A stretch of 64,000 bases of DNA. Source: Naegleria gruberi. Taxonomy: Eukaryota. The stretch lies in NCBI GenBank assembly GCA_000004985.1, contig GG738908.1; one strand, given 5' to 3'. The notes below the pieces were generated by a model. It saw only the letters and a program-made list of their open reading frames with translations, was not told where the DNA came from and did not search any database. Made by a program: the position numbers and the translations under genes. This document shows, in pieces, positions 25,270 through 58,445 of the stretch; positions within the stretch are counted from its first letter, which is position 1, and each line of letters begins with the position of its first letter.

Positions 25270-26961
25270 TTAATAGTAAATATCTCTGACACCTTCAGCA
25301 ATTCTTTCAAGGTTCTTCTTGAGTGACTTTCTCTTGGCTTCAGATGGAATGTTCTTTTGTTCTTCTTCAATTCTGTTCCAACCAACAGTTTGAGTTTTTT
25401 CATCGGCATAGTCATGCAAGTATTCAGCAAGTGTCATGATACTGTTAGGATGACACATATTTTGAATGTCACCCTTCTTGGCAATCTTCATAAACTTTTC
25501 ACCAGTACGATTCATTCTGTAACAAGCAGTACAGAAGCTTGGCATGTATCCAGTTTCCAATAATTCACGAATAACTTCACCAGTATTTCTGTGATCACCT
25601 AATGAGAATTGACCCATAGAGTAGTCATCACGCTCGTCTTCCTTCTTTTCATAACCACCAACTGCAGTGTTGGATCCAGCAGACATTTGTGAAATACCAA
25701 GAGAAAGCAATTCTCTTCTCATATCTGGATTTTCTCTTGTGGAGAGAATCATACCAGTGTATGGAACTGAACATCTCAATACAGCAACCAATTTTTTGAA
25801 TTGAGCATCACTGACAAGGTTTGGAACATGAACAGAAACCTCAGAGCCAGATGCTGGTTTCAGTCTTGGAACTGAGATGGTGTGTGGGCCAGCATTCCAA
25901 ACATCACTCAAATGGTTAGCATGTTGCAACATTGCCAACACCTCGAATCTATAGTCATATAAACCAAACAAAGCACCAATACCAACATCATCCAATCCAG
26001 TCACGAAGGCCTTATCCATGGTTTGCAATCTGTCGTAGTATTGTCCTTTAGTACCAAATGGATGCATTTCCTTGTGTGTTTGACGATGATAAGTTTCTTG
26101 GAACAAGATGTATGTTCCGACCTTGTTGGTTGCCTTCAATCTTCTAAAATCAGAAACACTCAATTGAGGAATTTCAACATTGATTCTTCTCACATCACCA
26201 TGAGGTTCAGTCTTGACATCAGCAGCAACTTGCAATTGTCTCATAAAATCTTCAAATGTATACTTTGGACTTTCTCCGCACAACATTAAAATTCTCTTGT
26301 GACCTTGTTTTTGTAAAGCTTCAACTTCTCTAATGACTTCTTCATCAGAGAGGGCTGATCTTGGCATTTCCTTATTAGATCCTCTGTATCCACAATATAA
26401 ACAACTTCCAACACAATAATTACTAGTATACAGTGGTGCAAACAAAACAATTCTGTTTCCGTAAATTAATTCCTTAATATAAAAAGCTGTTGTATATAAA
26501 CTGTTGAGAATATCAGTTTCTTCCTCTGGAATATTCAACAAGGTTGCAGTATCTTCAAGTGACAATCCTTGAATATATTCATCTTTAGGAATGGTTTCAC
26601 AACTTTGTGATTCAACTTCTCCACCATTCTTCTTATTTCGGAGAAGTGGTGATTTGAGCAAGGCTTGATCTCTAGCTCTCTTCAAAATTTGTCGAACGTG
26701 TTCATGATCTTTGGCTTTTTCCTTTGTTTCTTCCATCATTTGATGAATAAGTTTTTCATCAATAATTTTGGTTGGATCTGGAAGTTGTTTCAAGGTTTCT
26801 GGTTCTCTTTCTACGGACCACCTAGCTTGTGATTTAATGGATGTATGGAAATTCTTTGATGCAGATAACAATGAAGCACTACTACCATTAGTAACAGCAC
26901 AACTACTCAAAAGACCTGATCTTCTTCCACCATTAGCAGCCAATCTAGCTAAACTCTTCAT
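25270..26961 (-). CDS. hydG: [FeFe]-hydrogenase maturase HydG (radical-SAM tyrosine lyase) with an N-terminal presequence-like extension
   Basis: Radical-SAM CX3CX2C (CVGSCLYCGYRG) and the HydG-specific C-terminal CX2CX22C (CTACYRMNRTGEKFMKIAKKGDIQNMC). The N-terminus MKSLARLAANGGRRSGLLSS... is Arg/Ser-rich. Confidence 0.85.
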   Translation of the reverse strand: MKSLARLAANGGRRSGLLSSCAVTNGSSASLLSASKNFHTSIKSQARWSVEREPETLKQLPDPTKIIDEKLIHQMMEETKEKAKDHEHVRQILKRARDQALLKSPLLRNKKNGGEVESQSCETIPKDEYIQGLSLEDTATLLNIPEEETDILNSLYTTAFYIKELIYGNRIVLFAPLYTSNYCVGSCLYCGYRGSNKEMPRSALSDEEVIREVEALQKQGHKRILMLCGESPKYTFEDFMRQLQVAADVKTEPHGDVRRINVEIPQLSVSDFRRLKATNKVGTYILFQETYHRQTHKEMHPFGTKGQYYDRLQTMDKAFVTGLDDVGIGALFGLYDYRFEVLAMLQHANHLSDVWNAGPHTISVPRLKPASGSEVSVHVPNLVSDAQFKKLVAVLRCSVPYTGMILSTRENPDMRRELLSLGISQMSAGSNTAVGGYEKKEDERDDYSMGQFSLGDHRNTGEVIRELLETGYMPSFCTACYRMNRTGEKFMKIAKKGDIQNMCHPNSIMTLAEYLHDYADEKTQTVGWNRIEEEQKNIPSEAKRKSLKKNLERIAEGVRDIYY

Positions 26962-27428: not shown

Positions 27429-29003
27429 ATGATGAAGGGATTGAAAAAATCAGCCACGACACTTCTAAGATCGTCCAAGAGTGGTGGTATCAACTTTAAA
27501 GCAGCATCATTGATTTCGGAATTGAAGTTTGTTCCGAATCAATTGTTGATGAGAAATAACTTTTCTACTTCTTTGATACAACAACATGGCGACCACCACC
27601 ATGATCATCATCATCATGATTTGATGGAGGATGAACTGTTACCTACTCCTAAAAAGACAATTATCAATATTAAAGAACCTCCAATACCTACAGAAGTTGA
27701 TTTGGGAGCAATGGGTGAGCAAGTTGCAACAGCATCATCAGCCAATTCTGATCCAAAAGCTGCTGAACGTAAAATGAAAAGAGCAAGAACTGTAAATTAT
27801 CTTCAAAAACCACTCGAACAGAGAATTTTAGTATTGGAAAAGTATTTTGGAGTGAAACCAGAACTTGGAAAACCTGTGGAATTAACAAAGGAACAAATTG
27901 TAAATGTTTTAAATATTGAGGATCATGAGGAACAAAGAGCTCTCTTTGACTATGCCAATTCAATTACTGAATCAATTTATGGCTCAAAGGTTTACTTTAG
28001 AGGTATTATTGAATTTTCAAATGTTTGTCAGAAGGACTGCAATTATTGTGGTATTAGAAAACATATGCAAGTACCAAGATATACAATGCCAAAAGAAGAA
28101 ATAATAGAACAAGCTATTTGGGCCTATGAAAATCATTTTGGATCCATCATGTTACAATCTGGTGAATTGAATACAGAAGGAAGAATCTCAATGTTAGTCG
28201 ATGTCATTCGTGAAATTAAGAAACGTACAGGTGGAGGAGGTCCAGGTGAATGGAATAAGGGACTTGGTATTGCTCTCGGTGTTGGTGAATTGAGTAGAGA
28301 ATCTTATCAGAGATTATATGATGCTGGTGCTCACAGATATCTCCTAAGAATTGAAACATCCAATCCAGAACTCTACTCTAAACTCCATCCTAACGATGAA
28401 AATCACGTATGGGAAGAACGAAAGAAGTGCTTGGAAACTCTAATGGATATTGGATATCAAACTGGTACTGGTGTAATGATTATGATTCCAAATCAAACAG
28501 TTCAAGATTTGGCAGACGATTTACTCTTCTTTAGAAAAATTGGAGCTGATATGATTGGTATGGGACCATACATTGTTCAAGAAGGAACACCAATTGGAAA
28601 GATTTGGATGGAGCAATATGGTCACATGAATGAAGCAGAAAAGAAGGAATATAACAGAGTTCTATTCAGATTGGCTCTGAAGATGACTGCCCTGGCAAGA
28701 ATTTTAATTCCTGAAGCTAATATTTCTGCAACAACAGCTCTTCAAGCCATCAATCCAGCTGGTAGAGAAATAGCTTTAAGTTCTGGTGCCAATATGGTCA
28801 TGCCTATTATTACACCAACCAAGTATCGTGTCAATTATCAACTCTATCAAGGAAAACCTTGTATTGATGATACTAAGGAAGAATGTAAGAGATGTTTAAC
28901 AGATCGTGTTAAATGGTCTAACAAGCAATTGATTTTAGATGAATGGGGTGATCCAATCAGCTACTTTAATAAGAGAAATATGAAAGTACCGAACAAGGAA
29001 TAA
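27429..29003 (+). CDS. hydE: [FeFe]-hydrogenase maturase HydE (radical-SAM, biotin-synthase-like) with an N-terminal extension and a His-rich tract
   Basis: Radical-SAM CX3CX2C (CQKDCNYCGIRKH) and the HydE-type C-terminal CX7CX2C (CIDDTKEECKRC). N-terminus MMKGLKKSATTLLRSSKSGG... followed by HGDHHHDHHHHD. Confidence 0.85.
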   Translation: MMKGLKKSATTLLRSSKSGGINFKAASLISELKFVPNQLLMRNNFSTSLIQQHGDHHHDHHHHDLMEDELLPTPKKTIINIKEPPIPTEVDLGAMGEQVATASSANSDPKAAERKMKRARTVNYLQKPLEQRILVLEKYFGVKPELGKPVELTKEQIVNVLNIEDHEEQRALFDYANSITESIYGSKVYFRGIIEFSNVCQKDCNYCGIRKHMQVPRYTMPKEEIIEQAIWAYENHFGSIMLQSGELNTEGRISMLVDVIREIKKRTGGGGPGEWNKGLGIALGVGELSRESYQRLYDAGAHRYLLRIETSNPELYSKLHPNDENHVWEERKKCLETLMDIGYQTGTGVMIMIPNQTVQDLADDLLFFRKIGADMIGMGPYIVQEGTPIGKIWMEQYGHMNEAEKKEYNRVLFRLALKMTALARILIPEANISATTALQAINPAGREIALSSGANMVMPIITPTKYRVNYQLYQGKPCIDDTKEECKRCLTDRVKWSNKQLILDEWGDPISYFNKRNMKVPNKE

Positions 29004-39581: not shown

Positions 39582-42290
39582 ATGAAACGAAACCATTCTT
39601 CCTTGTCGAGTGGTGAAACAGTGATACAACAAAATGAAGAATTGGAAAGGAAGAAAAAGAAAACACCATCTGCGTTTCTGGATTCCCTATTGGAAAGATA
39701 TGAAAAAGTCTTGTATTCCATTAAATCGGAACTTTCGAATAATACAACAACCATCAATTCCGATTTGAGAAAAGAACTCGACCATTGTCACTTTAGTCTG
39801 ATCAATCTAATGGATAATCCTATTTCAAATCAACCGAAAGAAGACTATTCATCCTACACTGAATATGTCGAACAAAGTATTAATGACGTTTTACCAGATC
39901 ATATTCTCTCACAAATATTCTCCTATTTGAGTTTTCATGATTTCCGAGAGGTTACTAGGACTTGTATGATGTGGAGGAGGATTTGCTTTACAATTCAGAG
40001 TGCTTTGAGCGCATTTGAGATTTCTGATGAGATGCCAGTCGAGTGTGCAATGAGTTTATTCACCAGATTTGTGGAATGGAGAATTGGAAGTATTAGAAAA
40101 GTGAATATTCATTCAATCAATGTGTTTACGAATTGTGGACACAAATTTACTGGTGTCAAGTTTCTGGAAGAAGCAAGTAGTATGGCATTGACTGGATTTC
40201 CAAATATTGAAAGGGTTAAAGAATTGGAAATTACATCAACCTTCTTTGGAGATATGTACAAATATCCTGGATTGGAATCAATCAAATTTTTGAAATTTAA
40301 GGATGCTGTAATTGATTTCTTTCATTGCTCATTGTTTGGATTGACTTTGGTAGAATCGCTTCTTCCATTAATTGATTTTGAAAAGGTTGACTCACTCAAA
40401 TTGGTAACTAATTCAAAATTACTGAATTCCTTAGCTTGTTATGCCAAAGAAAATATCCAATCAAAAGCAAATCTACTCTTTCAGAATATCAACTCTAAGA
40501 TTAAATATTTGAGAATCACTCTAGCTGAAGAATCAACTGAAGATGACGATTTTGAAGGAGAAGTTGACATTCCACTTTCCAATTTAGAGGAATTATATGT
40601 TGAATTCGCAACCGTACGAACGGTGAATATGCTCCATTTTGATCCAGAGAAATTGAAAAGATTACAGATTGGATCTTGGCACGGCAAACACACAATTGAA
40701 AATCCACTACAGCCAAGAGTTAGTTTTGAGTTGTTTCTCGTTTCAGAATTTCACCAATTGCTAAACAGATCGGCAAAAATTCAAACTCTAGTTTTGGATA
40801 ATGTCAAGCCATTATTTTACAGAACCTTTGCGTTTTCACAATTTAAAAACTTGACACATCTCCATGTTGCAGAAATGAGTAATTCTAATCTAACCCAACT
40901 TGCACCAAAGCTTCAAGTTCTCAAAGTTGGCACAATTACTGAATTTAATCCAGAGATTTTCAAATTATTTGGATCATTGAAGGAACTTGAAATGGATCCT
41001 AAATATGCTTCAAAGATTGACTTTAAAGACCTACCGAAACTTTCAAATATTACTTTACAATCATTTTCAGCTCATTACTCGATGGATATTAATTCAGATT
41101 CTTTGAAGAGTATTCGGGTTATGTCCCGAATAAGAACTCTCACCATCAATGCAATCAATCTTGAAACATTCGATTTGAAGGGAAATATTGACAAACTCTC
41201 TATCCGATCGAACCAATTAGAAGCATTAGGTGTGATGTCTTATAATCAAATAGGGGATTTGTCAATTCTTTCATTCCAAATTCCAAACCATGGATGTGAA
41301 AATGTGTCCCCTCTAAAGGAGTTAAATTTGGCTAATGTCTCAACTGTAAGACAATTGCATTGTCCTTATTTGAAAACAATTAAGGTTCAATCTATGGCAT
41401 CTATTTGCCAACTTGTAGATTTGGATCAAACTCCTCTTATTGAAATGATAATATTTGAAAAGGCGTTTATTGAACCAGATGCTTTCAAGACATGTTTGGA
41501 TTATTTTGAAAATCTCAAAACGATTGAATTTTTTGATTGTAATCTTGGATCCTCAGCAAATGAAATCATTGAATTCTCATCCACAATTGAAGTTATTGAA
41601 ATTTATGAGGGAAGTCCAGAATTGATCAGATTTTTAACTAGCTTATTCTCAGAATCACCAAGTATGAAAGCTATCTATTTAATGGACACGGAGGTTGAAG
41701 AAACCTTTATTGAATCCATTTCACAACCAAAAGCAGATCAGTGGAAGAATCTCGAATTAATATCCCTCCAGAATTGTGTCAACATTTCAGGAAAGGCAAT
41801 TTCAGACTTTTATTCAAATATCAAACATTATGCATCCCTCAAATCTCTCACTCTGGTCCTTTCACCAGGAAATGAAATTGTCTACGATGCAAGAATTCCA
41901 CAAACTTTGGAATCCTTTACTGGAATTTTCAATTCTGTGGAAATTATTCCAACCAGCACGGCAAGAAGCAATATGGTGAATTTAAAGACAATTACATTGG
42001 ATGGAAGAAATTCTACATTTTCAAATTTTGAGATTAATACATTTTTACAATCGATATTCGATTTGTTTGTGGATGATAAGGAAGAAATGGCTCCATTCAG
42101 GACAGAGTTATATTCGCTGTTAGCTTGTGAAAGGTTGATTGCAGATTCTGAAAGTGATCCTCCAGATTTCAAACTAATCAATAAGGTAGTTGCTGGAATT
42201 CCTTCTATTCGAATCGTTTCGAAACAGTTATTTACAGATGATCCAGTTTTATTGCTCAGTCAGCGGCCACATCTCAAATTGTGTGATTAA
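39582..42290 (+). CDS. F-box / leucine-rich-repeat protein
   Basis: ATG at 39582. F-box LPDHILSQIFSYLSFHDFREVTRTCMMWRRICF, then ~750 aa of irregular LRR-like Leu/Ile/Asn-rich repeats. Confidence 0.6.
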   Translation: MKRNHSSLSSGETVIQQNEELERKKKKTPSAFLDSLLERYEKVLYSIKSELSNNTTTINSDLRKELDHCHFSLINLMDNPISNQPKEDYSSYTEYVEQSINDVLPDHILSQIFSYLSFHDFREVTRTCMMWRRICFTIQSALSAFEISDEMPVECAMSLFTRFVEWRIGSIRKVNIHSINVFTNCGHKFTGVKFLEEASSMALTGFPNIERVKELEITSTFFGDMYKYPGLESIKFLKFKDAVIDFFHCSLFGLTLVESLLPLIDFEKVDSLKLVTNSKLLNSLACYAKENIQSKANLLFQNINSKIKYLRITLAEESTEDDDFEGEVDIPLSNLEELYVEFATVRTVNMLHFDPEKLKRLQIGSWHGKHTIENPLQPRVSFELFLVSEFHQLLNRSAKIQTLVLDNVKPLFYRTFAFSQFKNLTHLHVAEMSNSNLTQLAPKLQVLKVGTITEFNPEIFKLFGSLKELEMDPKYASKIDFKDLPKLSNITLQSFSAHYSMDINSDSLKSIRVMSRIRTLTINAINLETFDLKGNIDKLSIRSNQLEALGVMSYNQIGDLSILSFQIPNHGCENVSPLKELNLANVSTVRQLHCPYLKTIKVQSMASICQLVDLDQTPLIEMIIFEKAFIEPDAFKTCLDYFENLKTIEFFDCNLGSSANEIIEFSSTIEVIEIYEGSPELIRFLTSLFSESPSMKAIYLMDTEVEETFIESISQPKADQWKNLELISLQNCVNISGKAISDFYSNIKHYASLKSLTLVLSPGNEIVYDARIPQTLESFTGIFNSVEIIPTSTARSNMVNLKTITLDGRNSTFSNFEINTFLQSIFDLFVDDKEEMAPFRTELYSLLACERLIADSESDPPDFKLINKVVAGIPSIRIVSKQLFTDDPVLLLSQRPHLKLCD

Positions 42291-42300
42291 TAAAAGTGGT

Positions 42301-43636
42301 TTATTTTCTTAAAATTCGGCCTCTGAACAAATCACTATCCAAGAATCGAACATAAATATCCTGAAGTGAATCAGATTCGATATTCTTGATTAATTCAGTA
42401 AAGAGATGAGGGACAGATCCTTCATTCTTGTATCGTTGCATGATGGCTTCTCTCACATTGGAGGCTACATTGAGTTCAGTTGGTGAGTTTGAATTTAAAT
42501 AGGAATCTATAATCTTCTTTGCTAATGCCTTTCGTTTGGTTTCGTTTTGAACTTTCTGATAACAGTGAGCTTCTTCCCAAAACATTAAACTTTCAGCAGC
42601 GTAAATCTTTGTAGAAAATAACTTTAAAACCTTTCTATAATTCTTATCTGCCAAAATCTTTTGAAGTGGAAATTGCTGAGTTAAATCTTGATTTGAAATT
42701 TCTTCAATTTGAGCAGAAAAACAAGAATTTGATTTCTTCTTTGCAGTTTTGAGAATTGGTTCATAAATTGGCTTTACCTCTACAGCAATCTTTTGAAATT
42801 CTGAAATTGTCGTTTCAATATTTTCAGTTCTTGACATTTGACTTGACATTTCGGCAGAAGAATTTACATATTCTGATTGATCTTTCAATAAATCAAACAA
42901 ATCATCACTTCCTTTTCCTTCCAAGTCAAGTAAAACTTCCATAAAATCTGGAACTACATAAACCTTATCATTCAAATGTCTATTTACAATCTTTCCATTT
43001 GCAATTACGAAAGTTGCCGAAAGCTGACTTCTAGATGCTCGCTCAGCTACATAATTAGTCAATTTGTAACCTTGAGAAAGTGCCACTTTCACAGTTTCGA
43101 TGACAACTTTCAGATTATTTGACATGTCAGATGCATTACTGGTCTTGACACCAAATTGTTGGTAATAGTAATTTCCTTCAGGATCTGCAACTCGTAGGAA
43201 TTTACTCATCAATTCTCCTCGTTGGTTCACTTGATTCTTTGTTGAGTTCAGAGTTGGACGAATCTTGTGAAGTTTCGAATTGTTTGTTCGAAAGTGGTTT
43301 TGGCATTCCAGCCCGTGAAAAGAATTCATCTGCCTCTTGCTCACTTTCCTGATGTACAAAAACAGGTATACAGTTTAGTTTAATCAAGCTGGATAAACTA
43401 TTTACAATATCCACAATACTTCTCTGACAGAAAACACATCCAAAATATCGAAGAAACACCAACAAAACAACATGCTTCTTGGAAAGATCAGCAACACTAA
43501 CTCCAATGTTAGTTATCATGGTTTCTAATAAATGATGTGGAAGGCCATTAAGACCAGAAATGTTATTCGAAACTAAATGTTGGTTCTCCGAAGAATCTAT
43601 TGGAGTTGTGAAGGTTTGGATGTTATCTTGTGACAT
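42301..43636 (-). CDS. PRXL2/PAMM-like thioredoxin-fold domain fused to a C-terminal RGS domain; the reading frame is interrupted (a +1 shift near 43205-43300)
   Basis: The upstream ORF (43636..43202) carries a VVLLVFLRYFGCVFCQR CxxC motif like PRXL2A. The overlapping ORF in the +1 frame (43359..42301) continues the same fold (GELMSKF...SATFVIANGKIVNRHLND) and ends with an RGS domain (ESLMFWEEAHCYQ...IIDSYL...IYVRFLDSDLF). I can find no GT..AG intron that reconciles the frames. Confidence 0.5.
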
Positions 43637-43825: not shown

Positions 43826-44095
43826 ATGAATCAATTAACATCACTTGATGTATACGATAATCAAATTGGTATAGAAGGATCCCAATTCATAAGTGAAATG
43901 ACACAATTAACATCACTTAATATATGTTACAATCAACTAGGTGATGAGGGAGCCAAAATCATAAGTAAAATGACACAACTAACATCACTTGATATATTTA
44001 GCAATGAAATTGGTGATGAGGGAGCCAAATCAATAAGTGAAATGAAACAATTAACATCACTTAATATTGCTGACAATCAGGTTGTTTTCTATTAG
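43826..44095 (+). CDS. RNI-like leucine-rich-repeat fragment (probably an exon of a larger gene, or a gene remnant)
   Basis: Three or four tandem ~28-aa repeats, MTQLTSLNICYNQLGDEGAKIIS. The repeat continues in frame upstream of the first M but is cut by a stop. Confidence 0.35.
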   Translation: MNQLTSLDVYDNQIGIEGSQFISEMTQLTSLNICYNQLGDEGAKIISKMTQLTSLDIFSNEIGDEGAKSISEMKQLTSLNIADNQVVFY

Positions 44096-47543: not shown

Positions 47544-48658
47544 NNNNNNNNNNNNNNNNNNNNNNNNNNNNNNNNNNNNNNNNNNNNNNNNNNNNNNNNN
47601 NNNNNNNNNNNNNNNNNNNNNNNNNNNNNNNNNNNNNNNNNNNNNNNNNNNNNNNNNNNNNNNNNNNNNNNNNNNNNNNNNNNNNNNNNNNNNNNNNNNN
47701 NNNNNNNNNNNNNNNNNNNNNNNNNNNNNNNNNNNNNNNNNNNNNNNNNNNNNNNNNNNNNNNNNNNNNNNNNNNNNNNNNNNNNNNNNNNNNNNNNNNN
47801 NNNNNNNNNNNNNNNNNNNNNNNNNNNNNNNNNNNNNNNNNNNNNNNNNNNNNNNNNNNNNNNNNNNNNNNNNNNNNNNNNNNNNNNNNNNNNNNNNNNN
47901 NNNNNNNNNNNNNNNNNNNNNNNNNNNNNNNNNNNNNNNNNNNNNNNNNNNNNNNNNNNNNNNNNNNNNNNNNNNNNNNNNNNNNNNNNNNNNNNNNNNN
48001 NNNNNNNNNNNNNNNNNNNNNNNNNNNNNNNNNNNNNNNNNNNNNNNNNNNNNNNNNNNNNNNNNNNNNNNNNNNNNNNNNNNNNNNNNNNNNNNNNNNN
48101 NNNNNNNNNNNNNNNNNNNNNNNNNNNNNNNNNNNNNNNNNNNNNNNNNNNNNNNNNNNNNNNNNNNNNNNNNNNNNNNNNNNNNNNNNNNNNNNNNNNN
48201 NNNNNNNNNNNNNNNNNNNNNNNNNNNNNNNNNNNNNNNNNNNNNNNNNNNNNNNNNNNNNNNNNNNNNNNNNNNNNNNNNNNNNNNNNNNNNNNNNNNN
48301 NNNNNNNNNNNNNNNNNNNNNNNNNNNNNNNNNNNNNNNNNNNNNNNNNNNNNNNNNNNNNNNNNNNNNNNNNNNNNNNNNNNNNNNNNNNNNNNNNNNN
48401 NNNNNNNNNNNNNNNNNNNNNNNNNNNNNNNNNNNNNNNNNNNNNNNNNNNNNNNNNNNNNNNNNNNNNNNNNNNNNNNNNNNNNNNNNNNNNNNNNNNN
48501 NNNNNNNNNNNNNNNNNNNNNNNNNNNNNNNNNNNNNNNNNNNNNNNNNNNNNNNNNNNNNNNNNNNNNNNNNNNNNNNNNNNNNNNNNNNNNNNNNNNN
48601 NNNNNNNNNNNNNNNNNNNNNNNNNNNNNNNNNNNNNNNNNNNNNNNNNNNNNNNNNN
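47544..48658. other. assembly gap (1115 N)
   Basis: Run of N. ORFs predicted inside it are artefacts. Confidence 0.95.
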
Positions 48659-50358: not shown

Positions 50359-50408
50359 NNNNNNNNNNNNNNNNNNNNNNNNNNNNNNNNNNNNNNNNNN
50401 NNNNNNNN
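50359..50408. other. assembly gap (50 N) between two tandem element copies
   Basis: Run of N. Confidence 0.95.
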
Positions 50409-53035: not shown

Positions 53036-54712
53036 ATGCTAACAATTGAATCAAAACTCAACAAAACAAAATACACAACAATATCATCCCTTTCAATGTC
53101 CTTTAATTCATCTTCATCATCAACATCATCATCATCATTGCAAAATAATTCCACAATTGTGTACACGAACATGAATCAATTAAATATTGATATTCTCGAG
53201 TATGTGTTTGAATTTATTCCGAGAGGAATGGACAGGAGGAGAATAACACTGGTCAACAAGGCTTTTCACGATTCCAGATACTTGCTGGAGAAACATGAAA
53301 TGGCTCGGATGTGGCACGATGAGAATACTTGTCTTTTAAATCCTCTCGTGGAAGAAGTGGTGAGTGAAGAAGAATTGGAGACGAAACAGGAAGAATTACA
53401 AATTGCCATACCTTTCCATTTGAAATGGTTTGTAACTGGCTTTACGAATGGTAGAAAGGCATGGTCTAATTCTGTTGTGCATGTTAGTAATTTGTTGGGA
53501 CCTGTCAAATCTTGGAAAATGGACACACAGAATGGTTATGTAGTGTTGGGAGTTGATACTCAATTCTCGAACATGTTAACATTGAGTAGGGATGGAAGGA
53601 TTAGAGTGAATAGAGACACGGTTGACTTTTTTGATTTTGTAACGATGGTAAATCGTCCATTGAATCCAGAATTTTACAATTTTGAAAAGTTTAAAGAAAG
53701 AGTGTACTTCCCCTTCTCAATGACTAAGGGATTTTATAGTATTTTGCCAGACAAGTACAAGTTTGTGGACAGGTTGACCATGCATGCTATTGAATTGGAT
53801 CCAAAATGTTATACTTATGTTCCAGATTATATCAAGAGGATGAAACATATTGCCAAGAAGGTGTTTATTAGAAATCCATCCTTGGGCAGATTAATTCCAA
53901 AAGAAATTTTGGAAGATACAGATTTTGTTATGGATATTTACAAATCATCACAATCAATTCTGTTTTATGCTTCTCCTAAAGGAAAATGGTGGAGTGATAG
54001 GGGTTTTATGATTGAGGCATTGAAGCGTGATGTATGTTTAATAAGAAACTGTTCTGAGGAAATACGGACTGATAGAGAAATTATTGACATGATTATTGAC
54101 ATTGATGCAGCAAGTTCTTTTCAATATATTGGAAAATTCAAGGAAGACGAAGATATTGTGAAAACGGCACTATTTAAATCAAACTTCAAGATTCTGCATT
54201 ATATCAATAGTGATTTTCTACTTAATAATAGAGAACTAGTTCTCACAATACTGAAAAGTAATGGAAAGTATATTAACGAAATGCCAGAGTCAATCAAAAA
54301 GGATAGAGAATGCTTTTTCCTAGCTGCAAGAACGCCTTATTTCACATACAAAGTTCAATCTCTTTACAAAATAATAGAGAGTGACAGAGAGGATTTCAAA
54401 TCAATTCTGCAATTTAATCCGGACCTTTTGGAGAAGACCATTTTCAAACACGACAGAGAGCTCCTTAAAGAGGCTCTTTCACACAGTGGATATTGTCTCA
54501 GATTTGCAAGTGAAGAATTCAAGGCAGATAAGGAACTTGTTTTGACAGCCGTAACAAACAATGGATCTGCCCTAATGTATGCTTCTCCAAAACTCAAAGA
54601 TTGTGAAGAGGTTGTCTTGGCAGCTGTAATGAATAATGGAAAAGCAATTCGCTTTGCTTCAAAGAGATTATCATCCAATCAGAAAATTATCAAATCAAGA
54701 AAGTTAAAGTAA
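53036..54712 (+). CDS. DUF4116-type repeat protein with an F-box-like N-terminal motif
   Basis: ATG at 53036. LNIDILEYVFEFIPRGMDRRRITLVNKAF resembles an F-box. C-terminal tandem ~38-aa repeats ...DKELVLTAVTNNGSALMYASPKLKDCEEVVLAAVMNNGKAIRFASKRL fit the DUF4116 pattern. Confidence 0.55.
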   Translation: MLTIESKLNKTKYTTISSLSMSFNSSSSSTSSSSLQNNSTIVYTNMNQLNIDILEYVFEFIPRGMDRRRITLVNKAFHDSRYLLEKHEMARMWHDENTCLLNPLVEEVVSEEELETKQEELQIAIPFHLKWFVTGFTNGRKAWSNSVVHVSNLLGPVKSWKMDTQNGYVVLGVDTQFSNMLTLSRDGRIRVNRDTVDFFDFVTMVNRPLNPEFYNFEKFKERVYFPFSMTKGFYSILPDKYKFVDRLTMHAIELDPKCYTYVPDYIKRMKHIAKKVFIRNPSLGRLIPKEILEDTDFVMDIYKSSQSILFYASPKGKWWSDRGFMIEALKRDVCLIRNCSEEIRTDREIIDMIIDIDAASSFQYIGKFKEDEDIVKTALFKSNFKILHYINSDFLLNNRELVLTILKSNGKYINEMPESIKKDRECFFLAARTPYFTYKVQSLYKIIESDREDFKSILQFNPDLLEKTIFKHDRELLKEALSHSGYCLRFASEEFKADKELVLTAVTNNGSALMYASPKLKDCEEVVLAAVMNNGKAIRFASKRLSSNQKIIKSRKLK

Positions 54713-54768
54713 CTTATTCGGTTATGCGCATATTAACATTTATCTGGATTTCTGTCAATACCCATCTC

Positions 54769-57700
54769 NNNNNNNNNNNNNNNNNNNNNNNNNNNNNNNN
54801 NNNNNNNNNNNNNNNNNNNNNNNNNNNNNNNNNNNNNNNNNNNNNNNNNNNNNNNNNNNNNNNNNNNNNNNNNNNNNNNNNNNNNNNNNNNNNNNNNNNN
54901 NNNNNNNNNNNNNNNNNNNNNNNNNNNNNNNNNNNNNNNNNNNNNNNNNNNNNNNNNNNNNNNNNNNNNNNNNNNNNNNNNNNNNNNNNNNNNNNNNNNN
55001 NNNNNNNNNNNNNNNNNNNNNNNNNNNNNNNNNNNNNNNNNNNNNNNNNNNNNNNNNNNNNNNNNNNNNNNNNNNNNNNNNNNNNNNNNNNNNNNNNNNN
55101 NNNNNNNNNNNNNNNNNNNNNNNNNNNNNNNNNNNNNNNNNNNNNNNNNNNNNNNNNNNNNNNNNNNNNNNNNNNNNNNNNNNNNNNNNNNNNNNNNNNN
55201 NNNNNNNNNNNNNNNNNNNNNNNNNNNNNNNNNNNNNNNNNNNNNNNNNNNNNNNNNNNNNNNNNNNNNNNNNNNNNNNNNNNNNNNNNNNNNNNNNNNN
55301 NNNNNNNNNNNNNNNNNNNNNNNNNNNNNNNNNNNNNNNNNNNNNNNNNNNNNNNNNNNNNNNNNNNNNNNNNNNNNNNNNNNNNNNNNNNNNNNNNNNN
55401 NNNNNNNNNNNNNNNNNNNNNNNNNNNNNNNNNNNNNNNNNNNNNNNNNNNNNNNNNNNNNNNNNNNNNNNNNNNNNNNNNNNNNNNNNNNNNNNNNNNN
55501 NNNNNNNNNNNNNNNNNNNNNNNNNNNNNNNNNNNNNNNNNNNNNNNNNNNNNNNNNNNNNNNNNNNNNNNNNNNNNNNNNNNNNNNNNNNNNNNNNNNN
55601 NNNNNNNNNNNNNNNNNNNNNNNNNNNNNNNNNNNNNNNNNNNNNNNNNNNNNNNNNNNNNNNNNNNNNNNNNNNNNNNNNNNNNNNNNNNNNNNNNNNN
55701 NNNNNNNNNNNNNNNNNNNNNNNNNNNNNNNNNNNNNNNNNNNNNNNNNNNNNNNNNNNNNNNNNNNNNNNNNNNNNNNNNNNNNNNNNNNNNNNNNNNN
55801 NNNNNNNNNNNNNNNNNNNNNNNNNNNNNNNNNNNNNNNNNNNNNNNNNNNNNNNNNNNNNNNNNNNNNNNNNNNNNNNNNNNNNNNNNNNNNNNNNNNN
55901 NNNNNNNNNNNNNNNNNNNNNNNNNNNNNNNNNNNNNNNNNNNNNNNNNNNNNNNNNNNNNNNNNNNNNNNNNNNNNNNNNNNNNNNNNNNNNNNNNNNN
56001 NNNNNNNNNNNNNNNNNNNNNNNNNNNNNNNNNNNNNNNNNNNNNNNNNNNNNNNNNNNNNNNNNNNNNNNNNNNNNNNNNNNNNNNNNNNNNNNNNNNN
56101 NNNNNNNNNNNNNNNNNNNNNNNNNNNNNNNNNNNNNNNNNNNNNNNNNNNNNNNNNNNNNNNNNNNNNNNNNNNNNNNNNNNNNNNNNNNNNNNNNNNN
56201 NNNNNNNNNNNNNNNNNNNNNNNNNNNNNNNNNNNNNNNNNNNNNNNNNNNNNNNNNNNNNNNNNNNNNNNNNNNNNNNNNNNNNNNNNNNNNNNNNNNN
56301 NNNNNNNNNNNNNNNNNNNNNNNNNNNNNNNNNNNNNNNNNNNNNNNNNNNNNNNNNNNNNNNNNNNNNNNNNNNNNNNNNNNNNNNNNNNNNNNNNNNN
56401 NNNNNNNNNNNNNNNNNNNNNNNNNNNNNNNNNNNNNNNNNNNNNNNNNNNNNNNNNNNNNNNNNNNNNNNNNNNNNNNNNNNNNNNNNNNNNNNNNNNN
56501 NNNNNNNNNNNNNNNNNNNNNNNNNNNNNNNNNNNNNNNNNNNNNNNNNNNNNNNNNNNNNNNNNNNNNNNNNNNNNNNNNNNNNNNNNNNNNNNNNNNN
56601 NNNNNNNNNNNNNNNNNNNNNNNNNNNNNNNNNNNNNNNNNNNNNNNNNNNNNNNNNNNNNNNNNNNNNNNNNNNNNNNNNNNNNNNNNNNNNNNNNNNN
56701 NNNNNNNNNNNNNNNNNNNNNNNNNNNNNNNNNNNNNNNNNNNNNNNNNNNNNNNNNNNNNNNNNNNNNNNNNNNNNNNNNNNNNNNNNNNNNNNNNNNN
56801 NNNNNNNNNNNNNNNNNNNNNNNNNNNNNNNNNNNNNNNNNNNNNNNNNNNNNNNNNNNNNNNNNNNNNNNNNNNNNNNNNNNNNNNNNNNNNNNNNNNN
56901 NNNNNNNNNNNNNNNNNNNNNNNNNNNNNNNNNNNNNNNNNNNNNNNNNNNNNNNNNNNNNNNNNNNNNNNNNNNNNNNNNNNNNNNNNNNNNNNNNNNN
57001 NNNNNNNNNNNNNNNNNNNNNNNNNNNNNNNNNNNNNNNNNNNNNNNNNNNNNNNNNNNNNNNNNNNNNNNNNNNNNNNNNNNNNNNNNNNNNNNNNNNN
57101 NNNNNNNNNNNNNNNNNNNNNNNNNNNNNNNNNNNNNNNNNNNNNNNNNNNNNNNNNNNNNNNNNNNNNNNNNNNNNNNNNNNNNNNNNNNNNNNNNNNN
57201 NNNNNNNNNNNNNNNNNNNNNNNNNNNNNNNNNNNNNNNNNNNNNNNNNNNNNNNNNNNNNNNNNNNNNNNNNNNNNNNNNNNNNNNNNNNNNNNNNNNN
57301 NNNNNNNNNNNNNNNNNNNNNNNNNNNNNNNNNNNNNNNNNNNNNNNNNNNNNNNNNNNNNNNNNNNNNNNNNNNNNNNNNNNNNNNNNNNNNNNNNNNN
57401 NNNNNNNNNNNNNNNNNNNNNNNNNNNNNNNNNNNNNNNNNNNNNNNNNNNNNNNNNNNNNNNNNNNNNNNNNNNNNNNNNNNNNNNNNNNNNNNNNNNN
57501 NNNNNNNNNNNNNNNNNNNNNNNNNNNNNNNNNNNNNNNNNNNNNNNNNNNNNNNNNNNNNNNNNNNNNNNNNNNNNNNNNNNNNNNNNNNNNNNNNNNN
57601 NNNNNNNNNNNNNNNNNNNNNNNNNNNNNNNNNNNNNNNNNNNNNNNNNNNNNNNNNNNNNNNNNNNNNNNNNNNNNNNNNNNNNNNNNNNNNNNNNNNN

Positions 57701-57800
57701 NNNNNNNNNNNNNNNNNNNNNNNNNNNNNNNNNNNNNNNNNNNNNNNNNNNNNNNNNNNNNNNNNNNNNNNNNNNNNNNNNNNNNNNNNNNNNNNNNNNN
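54769..57800. other. assembly gap (3032 N)
   Basis: Run of N. The flanking ORFs of X are artefacts. Confidence 0.95.
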
Positions 57801-58445
57801 GCTGAAGAATTATTAAGCCAAGAGTTTACTCCTCGTCTTTTTACAAAATTAAGCACGAAATATGATGTTGGTGTTGTGCCAAGTATGTGTACAGCATGTC
57901 GAGATGACAGAATCAACTGCTTTAAAGAAAGACCAATTTGTTCACATTGTCTTGAGAAAGGAATTCCTTGCATTTATCCCAAATTTCTTAGGTTAGCTCG
58001 TAAGTATTCCTATTACAAATGTATGTAATTTATTATTTGCAAAGCATGTGTTCCTTGTACGCAACACAGAAGCAAAGTCTGCAATAGACAAAAACCATCT
58101 TGTAACCGTTGTGCAAAAGGTGAATGTTTTTATTTCACTTCAGATACAGGTCTAATAATTGGTGATATGAAAATACGGGCAGCCAAAGAGCTCTATGCCA
58201 ATTTGGATGCAAAAGAACTAGAAGAGCCAAAAGAGAATGAACAAATGTCTGTTTCTCAGACTTTTGAAGGTTCAGATAGTGAGGATAACGATGAATCATC
58301 AATGTTGGAAATTGAGGAAAACAAAAAGAATGCATTAAAGCTTAAGGAGCAAATTCACAAGTGGAAAAAAATAGTGCAGGAAGAAAAGGAATTGAATAAC
58401 AAGAAATTGAACCAGTTGAATTATATTATTTCCGAGTTTAAATGA
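57801..58445 (+). CDS. 3' part of a gene encoding two tandem Zn2Cys6 (GAL4-type) binuclear-cluster motifs and a coiled-coil tail: join(57801..57999,58045..58445); the 5' end lies in the gap
   Basis: The frame runs out of the gap. CTACRDDRINCFKERPICSHCLEKGIPC fits CX2CX6CX6CX2CX6C. A 45-nt GTAAGT..aaag intron follows, then CVPCTQHRSKVCNRQKPSCNRCAKGEC and an E/K-rich coiled coil. Confidence 0.55.

What the first reader, a model, noticed from the sequence alone, without database searches (positions are those of the whole stretch)
42301..43636. PRXL2/PAMM-like thioredoxin-fold domain fused to an RGS domain, with an unresolved +1 frameshift
A CxxC thioredoxin-like domain (VVLLVFLRYFGCVFCQR...GELMSKF...ATFVIANG) followed by a regulator-of-G-protein-signalling domain (SLMFWEEAHCYQ...) is an unusual redox-plus-G-protein combination. 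The two halves are in different frames and overlap by ~150 nt. I find no canonical intron that reconciles them. The explanations are a single-base assembly indel, a recent pseudogenisation, or a programmed frameshift.
Basis: partly seen in the sequence, partly recalled or inferred. Interest (0 to 1): 0.55.

Follow-up and report, generated by a model that had tools for sequence, protein, structure and literature searches.

The report
Frameshifted redox-domain RGS gene in Naegleria
This is the Naegleria gruberi copy of a conserved amoeba gene that joins a thiol-redox (PRXL2-like) domain to a G-protein "off-switch" (RGS) domain, and in this reference genome it is broken by one extra base, so the frameshift is ordinary while the domain combination is mildly interesting.

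Summary
On the minus strand, ORF A (43636-43202, 144 aa, CxxC) and ORF B (43359-42301, 352 aa, RGS E=1e-17) overlap by 158 nt and are offset by +1.

The window is Naegleria gruberi NEG-M. ORF A is exactly XP_002671141.1, annotated as a "predicted protein".

Orthologues in N. lovaniensis, N. fowleri and a metagenome encode one protein, and the two whose DNA I read are intronless. An intact N. gruberi paralogue (XP_002674500.1) also exists.

A metagenome contig with dS 0.044 reads GAAC-CAAC where the window reads GAACTCAAC. The shift is therefore a single extra T on the coding strand at 43245. Removing it gives a 444-aa protein. This rules out an intron and a programmed frameshift.

That relative has its own nonsense codon in this copy, while its paralogue is intact. 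I therefore favour a real, recent lesion (about 0.6) over a Sanger consensus error (about 0.37). Only reads can decide.

The N-domain is a thioredoxin/peroxiredoxin-like fold. Its closest solved structure is human PRXL2B, although Pfam scores fall below threshold.

The fusion is a large family. All named members are heteroloboseans (Naegleria, Acrasis). I found no paper describing it.

The parts
43202..43636 (-). ORF A, 144 aa. It holds the N-terminal half of the thioredoxin-like domain. It is identical to the reference model XP_002671141.1 / NAEGRDRAFT_73873, 'predicted protein'. The TAA at 43204-43202 is reached only because of the frameshift.
42301..43359 (-). ORF B, 352 codons in the +1 frame. 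From 43244 downstream it carries the real coding sequence: the second half of the thioredoxin-like domain, the interdomain linker and the RGS domain. The stop codon is at 42303-42301.
43245..43245 (-). The lesion. It is one extra T on the coding strand (A on the + strand) in GAAC[T]CAAC. It is absent from the closely related contigs L073 and L074. Deleting it joins frame A to frame B as ...QDSSNSEPTKNQVNQRGELMSKFLRVADPEG...
42883..43555 (-). PRXL2 / AhpC-TSA_2-like thioredoxin-fold domain, from GLNGLPHHLL to LLDLEGKGSDDLFDLL. The frameshift splits it.
43427..43438 (-). CxxC motif (Cys67-Val-Phe-Cys70 in FLRYFGCVFCQ). Both Cys are invariant in a 29-sequence family alignment. They align to C44/C47 of human prostamide/PGF synthase.
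43222..43300 (-). Variable, low-complexity loop inserted in the thioredoxin-like domain, between GMP and RGELM. Its length and sequence differ in every orthologue. It is absent from the roughly 175-aa bacterial relatives and has low model confidence. It contains the extra base.
42322..42666 (-). RGS domain (PF00615), ORF B residues 232-346.

Best explanation
The locus is the Naegleria gruberi NEG-M orthologue of a conserved, intronless gene whose named relatives are all heteroloboseans. The gene encodes one protein of about 444 aa. The N-terminal part is a PRXL2-like thioredoxin-fold domain with a CxxC motif, interrupted by a variable loop. A disordered linker and a C-terminal RGS domain follow. 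In the reference sequence, one extra T on the coding strand at 43245, inside the variable loop, shifts the frame by +1. Translation from the ATG at 43636 would then stop at 43204 after 144 aa, giving half a thioredoxin fold and no RGS domain. I judge it most likely that the extra base is really in the NEG-M genome, on at least one haplotype. On that reading this copy is a very recent null allele or young pseudogene, tolerated because an intact paralogue (XP_002674500.1) exists. For the intact family I infer, but have not shown, this function: the RGS domain acts as a GTPase-activating protein for G-alpha subunits, and the CxxC domain makes that activity or its targeting respond to thiol or peroxide redox state.
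For: SHOWN.
- Identity. ORF A is identical to N. gruberi XP_002671141.1.
- Orthologues. N. lovaniensis, N. fowleri, a metagenome protein and the N. gruberi paralogue are single proteins covering both halves. The N. lovaniensis and metagenome genes are single uninterrupted ORFs.
- Synteny. HSP20 and the kinase/DOCK gene lie alongside, as in N. lovaniensis, at about 70% identity.
- Position of the shift. Conserved residues bound it to 43295-43221. The alignment to L073/L074 shows exactly one extra T at 43245, and removing it gives one open 444-codon frame.
- Introns. Real introns in this window are 45-65 nt and run GTAAGT...YAG. None fits here.
- The relative has its own damage in this copy: TTA to TAA at codon 81, and His35 to Gln at an otherwise invariant LPHHLL.
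- In the same sample the paralogue is intact and 474/477 identical to NEG-M's. That is about 3 changes per 477 aa. This copy has 7.5 nonsynonymous differences, three in-frame indels and one disabling lesion in each lineage over 362 codons.
- The extra base is not in a homopolymer run, where consensus indel errors usually occur.

Function.
- RGS scores 65 bits.
- It aligns to RGS10, RGS17 and RGS4. Reading that alignment, the equivalents of RGS4 E87, N128, D163 and R167 are kept.
- The best PDB match of the N-domain model is PRXL2B.
- The CxxC cysteines and one His are invariant.
Against: - Apart from the one base, the gene looks healthy.
- Frame B has no stop over 352 codons.
- The copy deviates at 23 of 150 otherwise invariant columns. 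The intact relatives deviate at 22/149 and 26/153, so there is no excess.
- dN/dS against the near-identical relative is 0.20, significantly below neutral (p=0.003).
- Any real lesion is therefore very recent. That pattern is equally what a consensus error in an 8x-era Sanger assembly would give (technology per PMC9928731 Table 1).
- No reads, transcripts or second NEG-M assembly could be reached.
- The relative's nonsense codon shows that this copy can be lost in a sister lineage. It does not show that NEG-M lost it.
- The redox-gated GAP mechanism rests entirely on domain content.
Confidence: 0.6

Rival explanations
1. Consensus or base-calling error in the Sanger draft assembly. On this reading the NEG-M genome reads GAACCAAC, the gene is an intact 444-aa PRXL2-like-RGS protein, and the 144-aa reference model is an annotation artefact of one spurious base.
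For: Removing a single base restores a full-length ORF with every family-invariant residue. dN/dS is 0.20 against a close relative. There is no second defect in 1.3 kb. The genome is a scaffolded Sanger draft with gaps in this window. The closest available sequence lacks the base.
Against: The site is not a homopolymer or an obvious compression context. The rest of the window shows long intact ORFs (902, 1528 and 830 aa) and clean intron boundaries, so the local error rate is low. The same gene copy carries an independent nonsense mutation in the sister lineage, while its paralogue is untouched there. This suggests that the copy is dispensable.
Confidence: 0.37
2. Programmed +1 ribosomal frameshifting, or another recoding event such as transcript slippage or editing, produces the full-length protein from the sequence as assembled.
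For: Both frames are open across a 158-nt overlap. Frame A ends at GAG TAA A, which superficially resembles the stop-codon +1 sites of Euplotes.
Against: A contig at dS 0.044 needs no shift at this site, and neither does any orthologue. The residues GELM(S), which match the orthologues, are encoded in frame B upstream of the frame A stop. A shift at the TAA would therefore lose them, and it scores lower. Reading CTC-AAC at 43246, I see no known slippery or hungry-codon motif. From general knowledge, no nuclear recoding of this kind is known in Heterolobosea.
Confidence: 0.02
3. An unrecognised intron removes the shift.
For: A 67-nt GTAAAT...CCAG segment (43205-43139) has the right phase and a typical length.
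Against: It would delete FLRVADPEGNYYYQQFG, the most conserved motif of the domain. The orthologues and L073 keep that stretch as coding sequence. Its donor and composition do not match the GTAAGT, AT-rich introns of this window.
Confidence: 0.01

Closest known systems
Naegleria lovaniensis C9374_009195 (P0001, 509 aa) and its N. fowleri orthologue (P0002)
   Same: They have the same architecture: thioredoxin-like CxxC domain, variable loop, linker, RGS. N. lovaniensis shares the neighbours HSP20 and kinase/DOCK. Identity is 54% overall and 69% in the N-domain.
   Different: They are uninterrupted, and the N. lovaniensis gene is a single exon. The loop sequence and length are unrelated. In N. 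gruberi an F-box/LRR gene lies between this gene and HSP20.
N. gruberi paralogue XP_002674500.1 / D2VNL1, 'G protein signaling regulator' (P0004, 477 aa)
   Same: It belongs to the same family, has the same architecture and comes from the same genome.
   Different: It shares only 45% identity and sits on another scaffold. It is intact, and it is 99.4% conserved in the metagenome relative, whereas the window-type copy carries lesions in both lineages.
Human PRXL2B (prostamide/prostaglandin F synthase, PDB 9us9/9usa) and the PRXL2/PAMM, AhpC-TSA_2 (PF13911) family
   Same: It is the best structural match of the N-domain model: E=7e-6, target-normalised TM 0.69. The F-G-C-x-x-C motif aligns to C44/C47. 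Stand-alone bacterial relatives of the N-domain pass the PF13911 threshold.
   Different: Sequence identity is about 17%. The Naegleria domains fall below all Pfam thresholds. They carry a 25-60 aa loop insertion and are fused to RGS. No enzymatic activity is known.
Small animal RGS proteins: RGS10, RGS17 and RGS4
   Same: The RGS domain aligns end to end (E=3.5e-8 to RGS10). The model of the N. lovaniensis orthologue matches RGS4 bound to G-alpha-i1. The equivalents of RGS4 E87, N128, D163 and R167 are kept.
   Different: The SEEN motif reads AAES, so S85 becomes A and N88 becomes S. There is an N-terminal redox-type domain instead of short amphipathic or cysteine-string segments. GAP activity is untested.
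Other multidomain RGS architectures, such as 7TM-RGS and RGS-RhoGEF in N. fowleri (PMC9283941) and the domain-shuffled RGS proteins surveyed in PMC3971589
   Same: The principle is the same: an RGS domain is joined to a sensor or targeting module. Naegleria has a very large RGS repertoire, with 79 additional RGS proteins reported in N. fowleri.
   Different: The passages and term searches I ran in those papers turned up no thioredoxin- or peroxiredoxin-like partner domain.

Membership tests
RGS domain (Pfam PF00615) | Profile score above the curated threshold | tested here: met
   64-65 bits against a cut-off of 23.9, covering profile positions 2-115 of 117.
RGS domain (Pfam PF00615) | All-helical RGS fold | tested here: met
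   In the AlphaFold model of orthologue P0001 the RGS region has pLDDT 77-92. The top Foldseek hits are RGS4, RGS16 and RGS8, with target TM 0.6-0.69. This was tested on the orthologue, not on the window protein itself.
RGS domain (Pfam PF00615) | G-alpha contact residues (RGS4 S85, E87, N88, N128, D163, R167) | tested here: inconclusive
   I read the RGS10 alignment using RGS4 numbering from memory. E87, N128, D163 and R167 are kept. S85 becomes A and N88 becomes S. The AES/ESL form is shared by all orthologues.
RGS domain (Pfam PF00615) | GTPase-accelerating activity on a G-alpha subunit | not testable with these tools
   This needs a biochemical assay.
PRXL2 / AhpC-TSA_2 (Pfam PF13911) | Profile score above the curated threshold | tested here: not met
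   The repaired window protein scores 15.1 bits against 27. The best of six family members reaches E=4.5e-4, still below threshold.
PRXL2 / AhpC-TSA_2 (Pfam PF13911) | CxxC motif at the position of the PRXL2 active-site cysteines | tested here: met
   FLRYFGCVFCQ aligns to LRRFGCVVCR, which contains C44/C47 of human PGFS. The PDB entry 9usa is titled as the C44S/C47S mutant. Both Cys are invariant in 29 sequences.
PRXL2 / AhpC-TSA_2 (Pfam PF13911) | Thioredoxin/peroxiredoxin-like fold that is closest to PRXL2 | tested here: met
   The model of P0005 has pLDDT 84.6 and pTM 0.79. The top PDB matches are 9usa and 9us9, followed by Prx6 and BCP. This was tested on a paralogue-lineage protein.
PRXL2 / AhpC-TSA_2 (Pfam PF13911) | Homology to bona fide members | tested here: met
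   The N-domain profile hits the Saprospiraceae 'redoxin family protein' P0007 at E=5e-17. P0007, P0089 and P0095 pass the PF13911 threshold. They also pass Redoxin or AhpC-TSA, so the evidence places the domain in the clan, not firmly in PF13911.
Peroxiredoxin proper (AhpC/TSA, PF00578) | Profile score above threshold, plus the PxxxT/SxxC peroxidatic motif | tested here: not met
   Scores are 16.8-18.5 bits against 26. The motif reads LVFLRYFGCVFC, with no Pro or Thr at the peroxiredoxin positions (read from the sequence).
Programmed +1 ribosomal frameshift site | The shift is conserved in relatives, and there is a recognisable slippery or pause motif | tested here: not met
   The contig at dS 0.044 has no shift at this site and no orthologue has one. 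The N. lovaniensis and P0003 genes are single ORFs. A shift at the stop scores worse. I saw no known motif at 43246-43241.
Pseudogene | A disabling lesion in a formerly coding sequence | tested here: inconclusive
   The lesion is in the assembled sequence. Whether it is in the organism cannot be tested without reads.
Pseudogene | Loss of selective constraint | tested here: not met
   dN/dS is 0.20 (p=0.003 against neutral) relative to L073. There is no excess change at invariant columns. If this is a pseudogene, it is very young.

The most novel reading that the evidence does not exclude
The PRXL2-like-RGS proteins of Naegleria, Acrasis and related metagenome sequences are redox-gated GTPase-activating proteins. 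On this reading the CxxC domain senses peroxide or thiol redox state and switches the adjacent RGS domain on or off. That would be a direct, single-polypeptide link between oxidative signals and heterotrimeric G-protein signalling, and I found no description of it. The family has at least 91 members, and 67 of them keep the CxxC.
Probability: 0.25. Interest if true: 0.6.

Novelty: new variant of a known kind. Interest (0 to 1): 0.33.

Why it matters
The practical outcome is a correction to the reference. NAEGRDRAFT_73873 (144 aa, "predicted protein") is the front half of a 444-aa PRXL2-like-RGS gene, split by one base at window position 43245. No model was found for the RGS half.

Biologically, the locus points to an unannotated domain. 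Database entries for this family carry only "RGS", because the redox-type domain scores below Pfam thresholds. Yet the fusion is conserved and expanded in Naegleria and Acrasis.

If the CxxC domain controls the RGS domain, these amoebae would have a one-protein route from redox state to G-protein signalling. Naegleria includes the pathogen N. fowleri, whose orthologue is intact.

The frameshift itself is either a trivial assembly error or an ordinary young pseudogene next to a working paralogue.

Tried and rejected
1. I enumerated every GT/GC...AG intron of length 3n+1 that would join the frames. None is acceptable. The best-looking one (43205-43139, 67 nt) deletes the invariant FLRVADPEGNYYYQQFG motif.
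2. I tested a +1 shift at the TAA stop. It loses the conserved GELM residues and scores lower.
3. A delete-one-base scan against the orthologues bounded the site to 43295-43221 but could not pinpoint it, because the loop is unalignable. The near-identical contig L073 resolved it.
4. Exact look-ups found nothing for ORF A, for ORF B with TTG or ATG starts, or for five shorter Met-start versions. The repaired protein was not accepted for look-up. I therefore found no independent NEG-M data.
5. Homology searches did not return a reference model for the RGS half. That tool's recall was uneven: it missed the identical P0006 and missed P0002 and P0004. Absence there is weak evidence.
6. The metagenome locus scan returned only distant bacterial redoxins at 22-39% identity.
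7. A PDB sequence search with the N-domain profile gave only a marginal PRXL2B hit (E=0.49). Fold comparison was needed.
8. The afdb50 fold library was unavailable.
9. Literature searches for RGS with thioredoxin or peroxiredoxin-like domains in Naegleria or Acrasis found nothing. Anantharaman et al. 2011 (Gene 475:63), the paper most likely to list such an architecture, is not held.
10. My first guess that the window was not N. gruberi was wrong. It rested on the 45% identity to P0004, which is a paralogue.

Full report
**What is in the sequence.** Two ORFs lie on the minus strand.
- ORF A runs 43636..43202. It is 144 aa and contains VVLLVFLRYFGCVFCQR.
- ORF B runs 43359..42301. It is 352 codons and contains GELMSKF, ATFVIANG and SLMFWEEAHCYQ.
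- They overlap by 158 nt, and ORF B is +1 relative to ORF A.
- Pfam gives a strong RGS match in ORF B (65 bits against a cut-off of 23.9, E=1e-17). It gives only a sub-threshold AhpC-TSA match in ORF A.

**Whose genome this is.**
- ORF A is 100% identical over its whole length to N. gruberi XP_002671141.1 / EFC38397.1 / NAEGRDRAFT_73873 (UniProt D2VXU1). That entry is a 144-aa "predicted protein" on a 259-kb scaffold.
- The window is therefore N. gruberi NEG-M. This genome is a Sanger assembly of 40.9 Mb with 35% GC (PMC9928731 Table 1).
- That fits the window's composition and its N-gaps at 47544-48658, 50359-50408 and 54769-57800.
- I found no reference model for the RGS half. The search tool's recall was uneven, so this is weak evidence.

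**It is one gene.**
- A protein made by joining the two frames matches single, continuous proteins at E=1e-108 to 1e-132. These come from N. lovaniensis (P0001, 509 aa, 54% identity), N. fowleri (P0002), an ENA metagenome (P0003) and N. gruberi itself (P0004, XP_002674500.1, "G protein signaling regulator", 45% identity).
- The N. lovaniensis and ENA genes are uninterrupted single ORFs.
- The window copy is the syntenic orthologue of the N. lovaniensis gene. HSP20 (70% identity) and the kinase/DOCK gene (70.5% over 1363 aa) follow in the same order and orientation. An extra F-box/LRR gene (39582-42290) is inserted in N. gruberi.
- P0004 lies on another scaffold and groups with Logan protein P0005 (61-67% identity). 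It is a paralogue.

**Where the frame changes.**
- Frame A is conserved through GMPKPL, to about 43296. Frame B is conserved from RGELMSKFLRVADPEGNYYY, starting at 43221. Between them lies a loop that differs in length and sequence in every orthologue.
- I deleted each base in turn and scored the result against four orthologues. The scores form a plateau across 43295-43221 and drop outside it. A shift at the TAA stop scores lower.
- Real introns in this window are 45-65 nt and run GTAAGT...YAG. No candidate of the right phase is credible. The only well-sized one would remove the domain's most conserved motif.

**The exact lesion.**
- The exhaustive representative search returned a 79-aa fragment, P0040, that is 94% identical to ORF A.
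- Its contigs are L073 (ENA ERZ929261, run ERR1078381) and L074 (a Logan assembly of the same run). They align to the window's minus strand with dS 0.044.
- In the loop they read TCTGAAC-CAACAAAG where the window reads TCTGAACTCAACAAAG. The window therefore has one extra T on the coding strand at 43245.
- The orthologues keep both flanks in one frame, so the state without the T is ancestral.
- Removing the T gives a single 444-codon ORF that reads ...QDSSNSEPTKNQVNQRGELMSKFLRVADPEG....
- This excludes an intron. It also excludes a conserved programmed frameshift, because a near-identical gene needs no shift at this site.

**Is the extra base real or an error?** This cannot be settled without reads.

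Evidence for an error:
- The gene is otherwise clean. Its deviation at invariant columns is normal: 23/150, against 22/149 and 26/153 for intact relatives.
- dN/dS against L073 is 0.20 (9.5 synonymous and 7.5 nonsynonymous differences, p=0.003 against neutrality).

Evidence for a real lesion:
- The site is not a homopolymer.
- The rest of the window has long intact ORFs and clean introns.
- The relative carries its own independent damage in this same copy. TTA becomes TAA at codon 81, and His35 becomes Gln in the otherwise invariant LPHHLL.
- In the same sample the paralogue (P0008, contig L075) is intact and 474/477 identical to NEG-M's.
- One copy is damaged independently in two sister lineages, while its paralogue is nearly frozen. 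That suggests the window-type copy is dispensable in the N. gruberi clade.
- A heterozygous null allele in a diploid would fit both the low dN/dS and the lesions. PMC9928731 describes Naegleria as "mainly a heterozygous diploid".

I put a real lesion at about 0.6, an assembly error at about 0.37, and recoding or an intron at about 0.03 together.

**The N-terminal domain.**
- By Pfam alone it fails. AhpC-TSA hits 6 of 6 family members and AhpC-TSA_2 hits 5 of 6, but all are below threshold.
- A profile of the six Naegleria-type N-domains hits a 175-aa Saprospiraceae "redoxin family protein" (P0007) at E=5e-17.
- P0007 and similar stand-alone proteins of about 175 aa pass the thresholds for AhpC-TSA_2, Redoxin and AhpC-TSA. 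They lack the loop.
- An AlphaFold model of P0005 built with a 29-sequence alignment has pLDDT 84.6 and pTM 0.79.
- Its best PDB matches are human prostamide/PGF synthase (PRXL2B; 9usa and 9us9, E=7e-6, target TM 0.69). Prx6 and BCP peroxiredoxins come next.
- The CxxC aligns to C44/C47 of that enzyme.
- Both Cys, a Phe and the His of VHxE are invariant across 29 sequences.
- The peroxiredoxin PxxxTxxC motif is absent.
- "PRXL2-like thioredoxin-fold domain" is therefore a fair description. Strict Pfam membership is not met.
- The frameshift lies inside this domain. ORF A alone would be half a fold.

**The RGS domain.**
- It aligns end to end with RGS10, RGS17, RGS1 and RGS4.
- The model of the N. 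lovaniensis orthologue matches RGS4 in its G-alpha-i1 complex.
- I read the alignment using RGS4 numbering from memory. The equivalents of E87, N128, D163 and R167 are kept. S85 and N88 are Ala and Ser.
- GAP competence is plausible but untested.

**How widespread the fusion is.**
- An exhaustive profile search of 1.84 billion representatives found 23 clusters at E<=1e-30 and 214 at E<=1e-10.
The redox domain always comes first. 67 of the 91 keep a CxxC.
- Every named member is a heterolobosean: N. gruberi, N. fowleri, N. lovaniensis, and many Acrasis kona paralogues. They are annotated only as RGS proteins or as hypothetical proteins.
- I found no paper describing this architecture. One relevant survey, Anantharaman et al. 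2011, was not available.

**Likely mechanism (inferred).**
- In the intact family, the RGS domain accelerates GTP hydrolysis on G-alpha subunits.
- The CxxC domain, by cycling between dithiol and disulfide, makes this activity or its partners depend on redox state.
- In the NEG-M sequence as assembled, translation ends after 144 aa, so this copy would be null. A truncated RGS product from an internal Met is conceivable but unsupported.

**Verdict.** The frameshift is a single-base matter, either an error or a young pseudogene, and is of little interest in itself. The domain combination is real, conserved, seen so far only in heteroloboseans among named members, and unannotated. It is a new variant within the well-known, heavily domain-shuffled RGS proteins.

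Noticed in passing
L073:256-1356 (ENA ERZ929261, run ERR1078381); corresponds to window 43636-42540, minus strand: A metagenome relative of N. gruberi (dS 0.044) carries the same gene with an independent nonsense codon: TTA to TAA at codon 81, equivalent to window 43396-43394. It also has His35 to Gln at an invariant site. Its paralogue, on L075 from the same sample, is intact and 99.4% identical to NEG-M's.
   Followed up: yes
window 39582-42290 (+): A 902-aa F-box-like protein gene lies between HSP20 and the RGS gene. The syntenic interval of N. lovaniensis (L001) has nothing there. Its stop codon is only 10 nt from the stop codon of the convergent RGS gene (42290 against 42301).
   Followed up: partly
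window 43826-44095 (+), and the region upstream of 43770: A short 89-aa leucine-rich-repeat ORF (LRR_6, E=3e-18) sits about 190 nt upstream of the gene's ATG. It looks like a gene fragment. The alignment with L073 breaks down about 130 nt upstream of the ATG, so this flank is arranged differently in the close relative.
   Followed up: partly
L003:2797-3585 and L003:3489-3932 (Logan SRR15442814): P0005, the closest relative of the N. gruberi paralogue, is a 262-aa protein with only the redox-type domain. It ends in the interdomain linker, and a convergent ORF follows directly. This is either a natural stand-alone form or a chimeric or short contig.
   Followed up: partly
window 25270-26961 (-) and 27429-29003 (+): Two divergently oriented radical-SAM genes lie here, and one has a BATS domain. 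The pair resembles the HydG/HydE hydrogenase maturases (my recollection, not tested).
   Followed up: no
window 47544-48658, 50359-50408, 54769-57800: These are runs of N (scaffold gaps). They create spurious long ORFs in the ORF list, for example 54724-57816, and the very low GC values in the composition profile.
   Followed up: yes
window 53036-54712 (+): A 558-aa ORF with five DUF4116 repeats (E=6.5e-50) ends about 57 nt before a scaffold gap.
   Followed up: no
window 43250-43241 (minus strand): The extra T creates a second copy of AACTC seven bases after the first (CCAACTCTGAACTCAAC). This is possibly a templated insertion and possibly coincidence.
   Followed up: no
tool behaviour: The word-indexed protein search missed sequences it should have found: the identical P0006, P0001-P0004, and P0002 and P0004. 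Negative results from it are weak evidence.
   Followed up: partly
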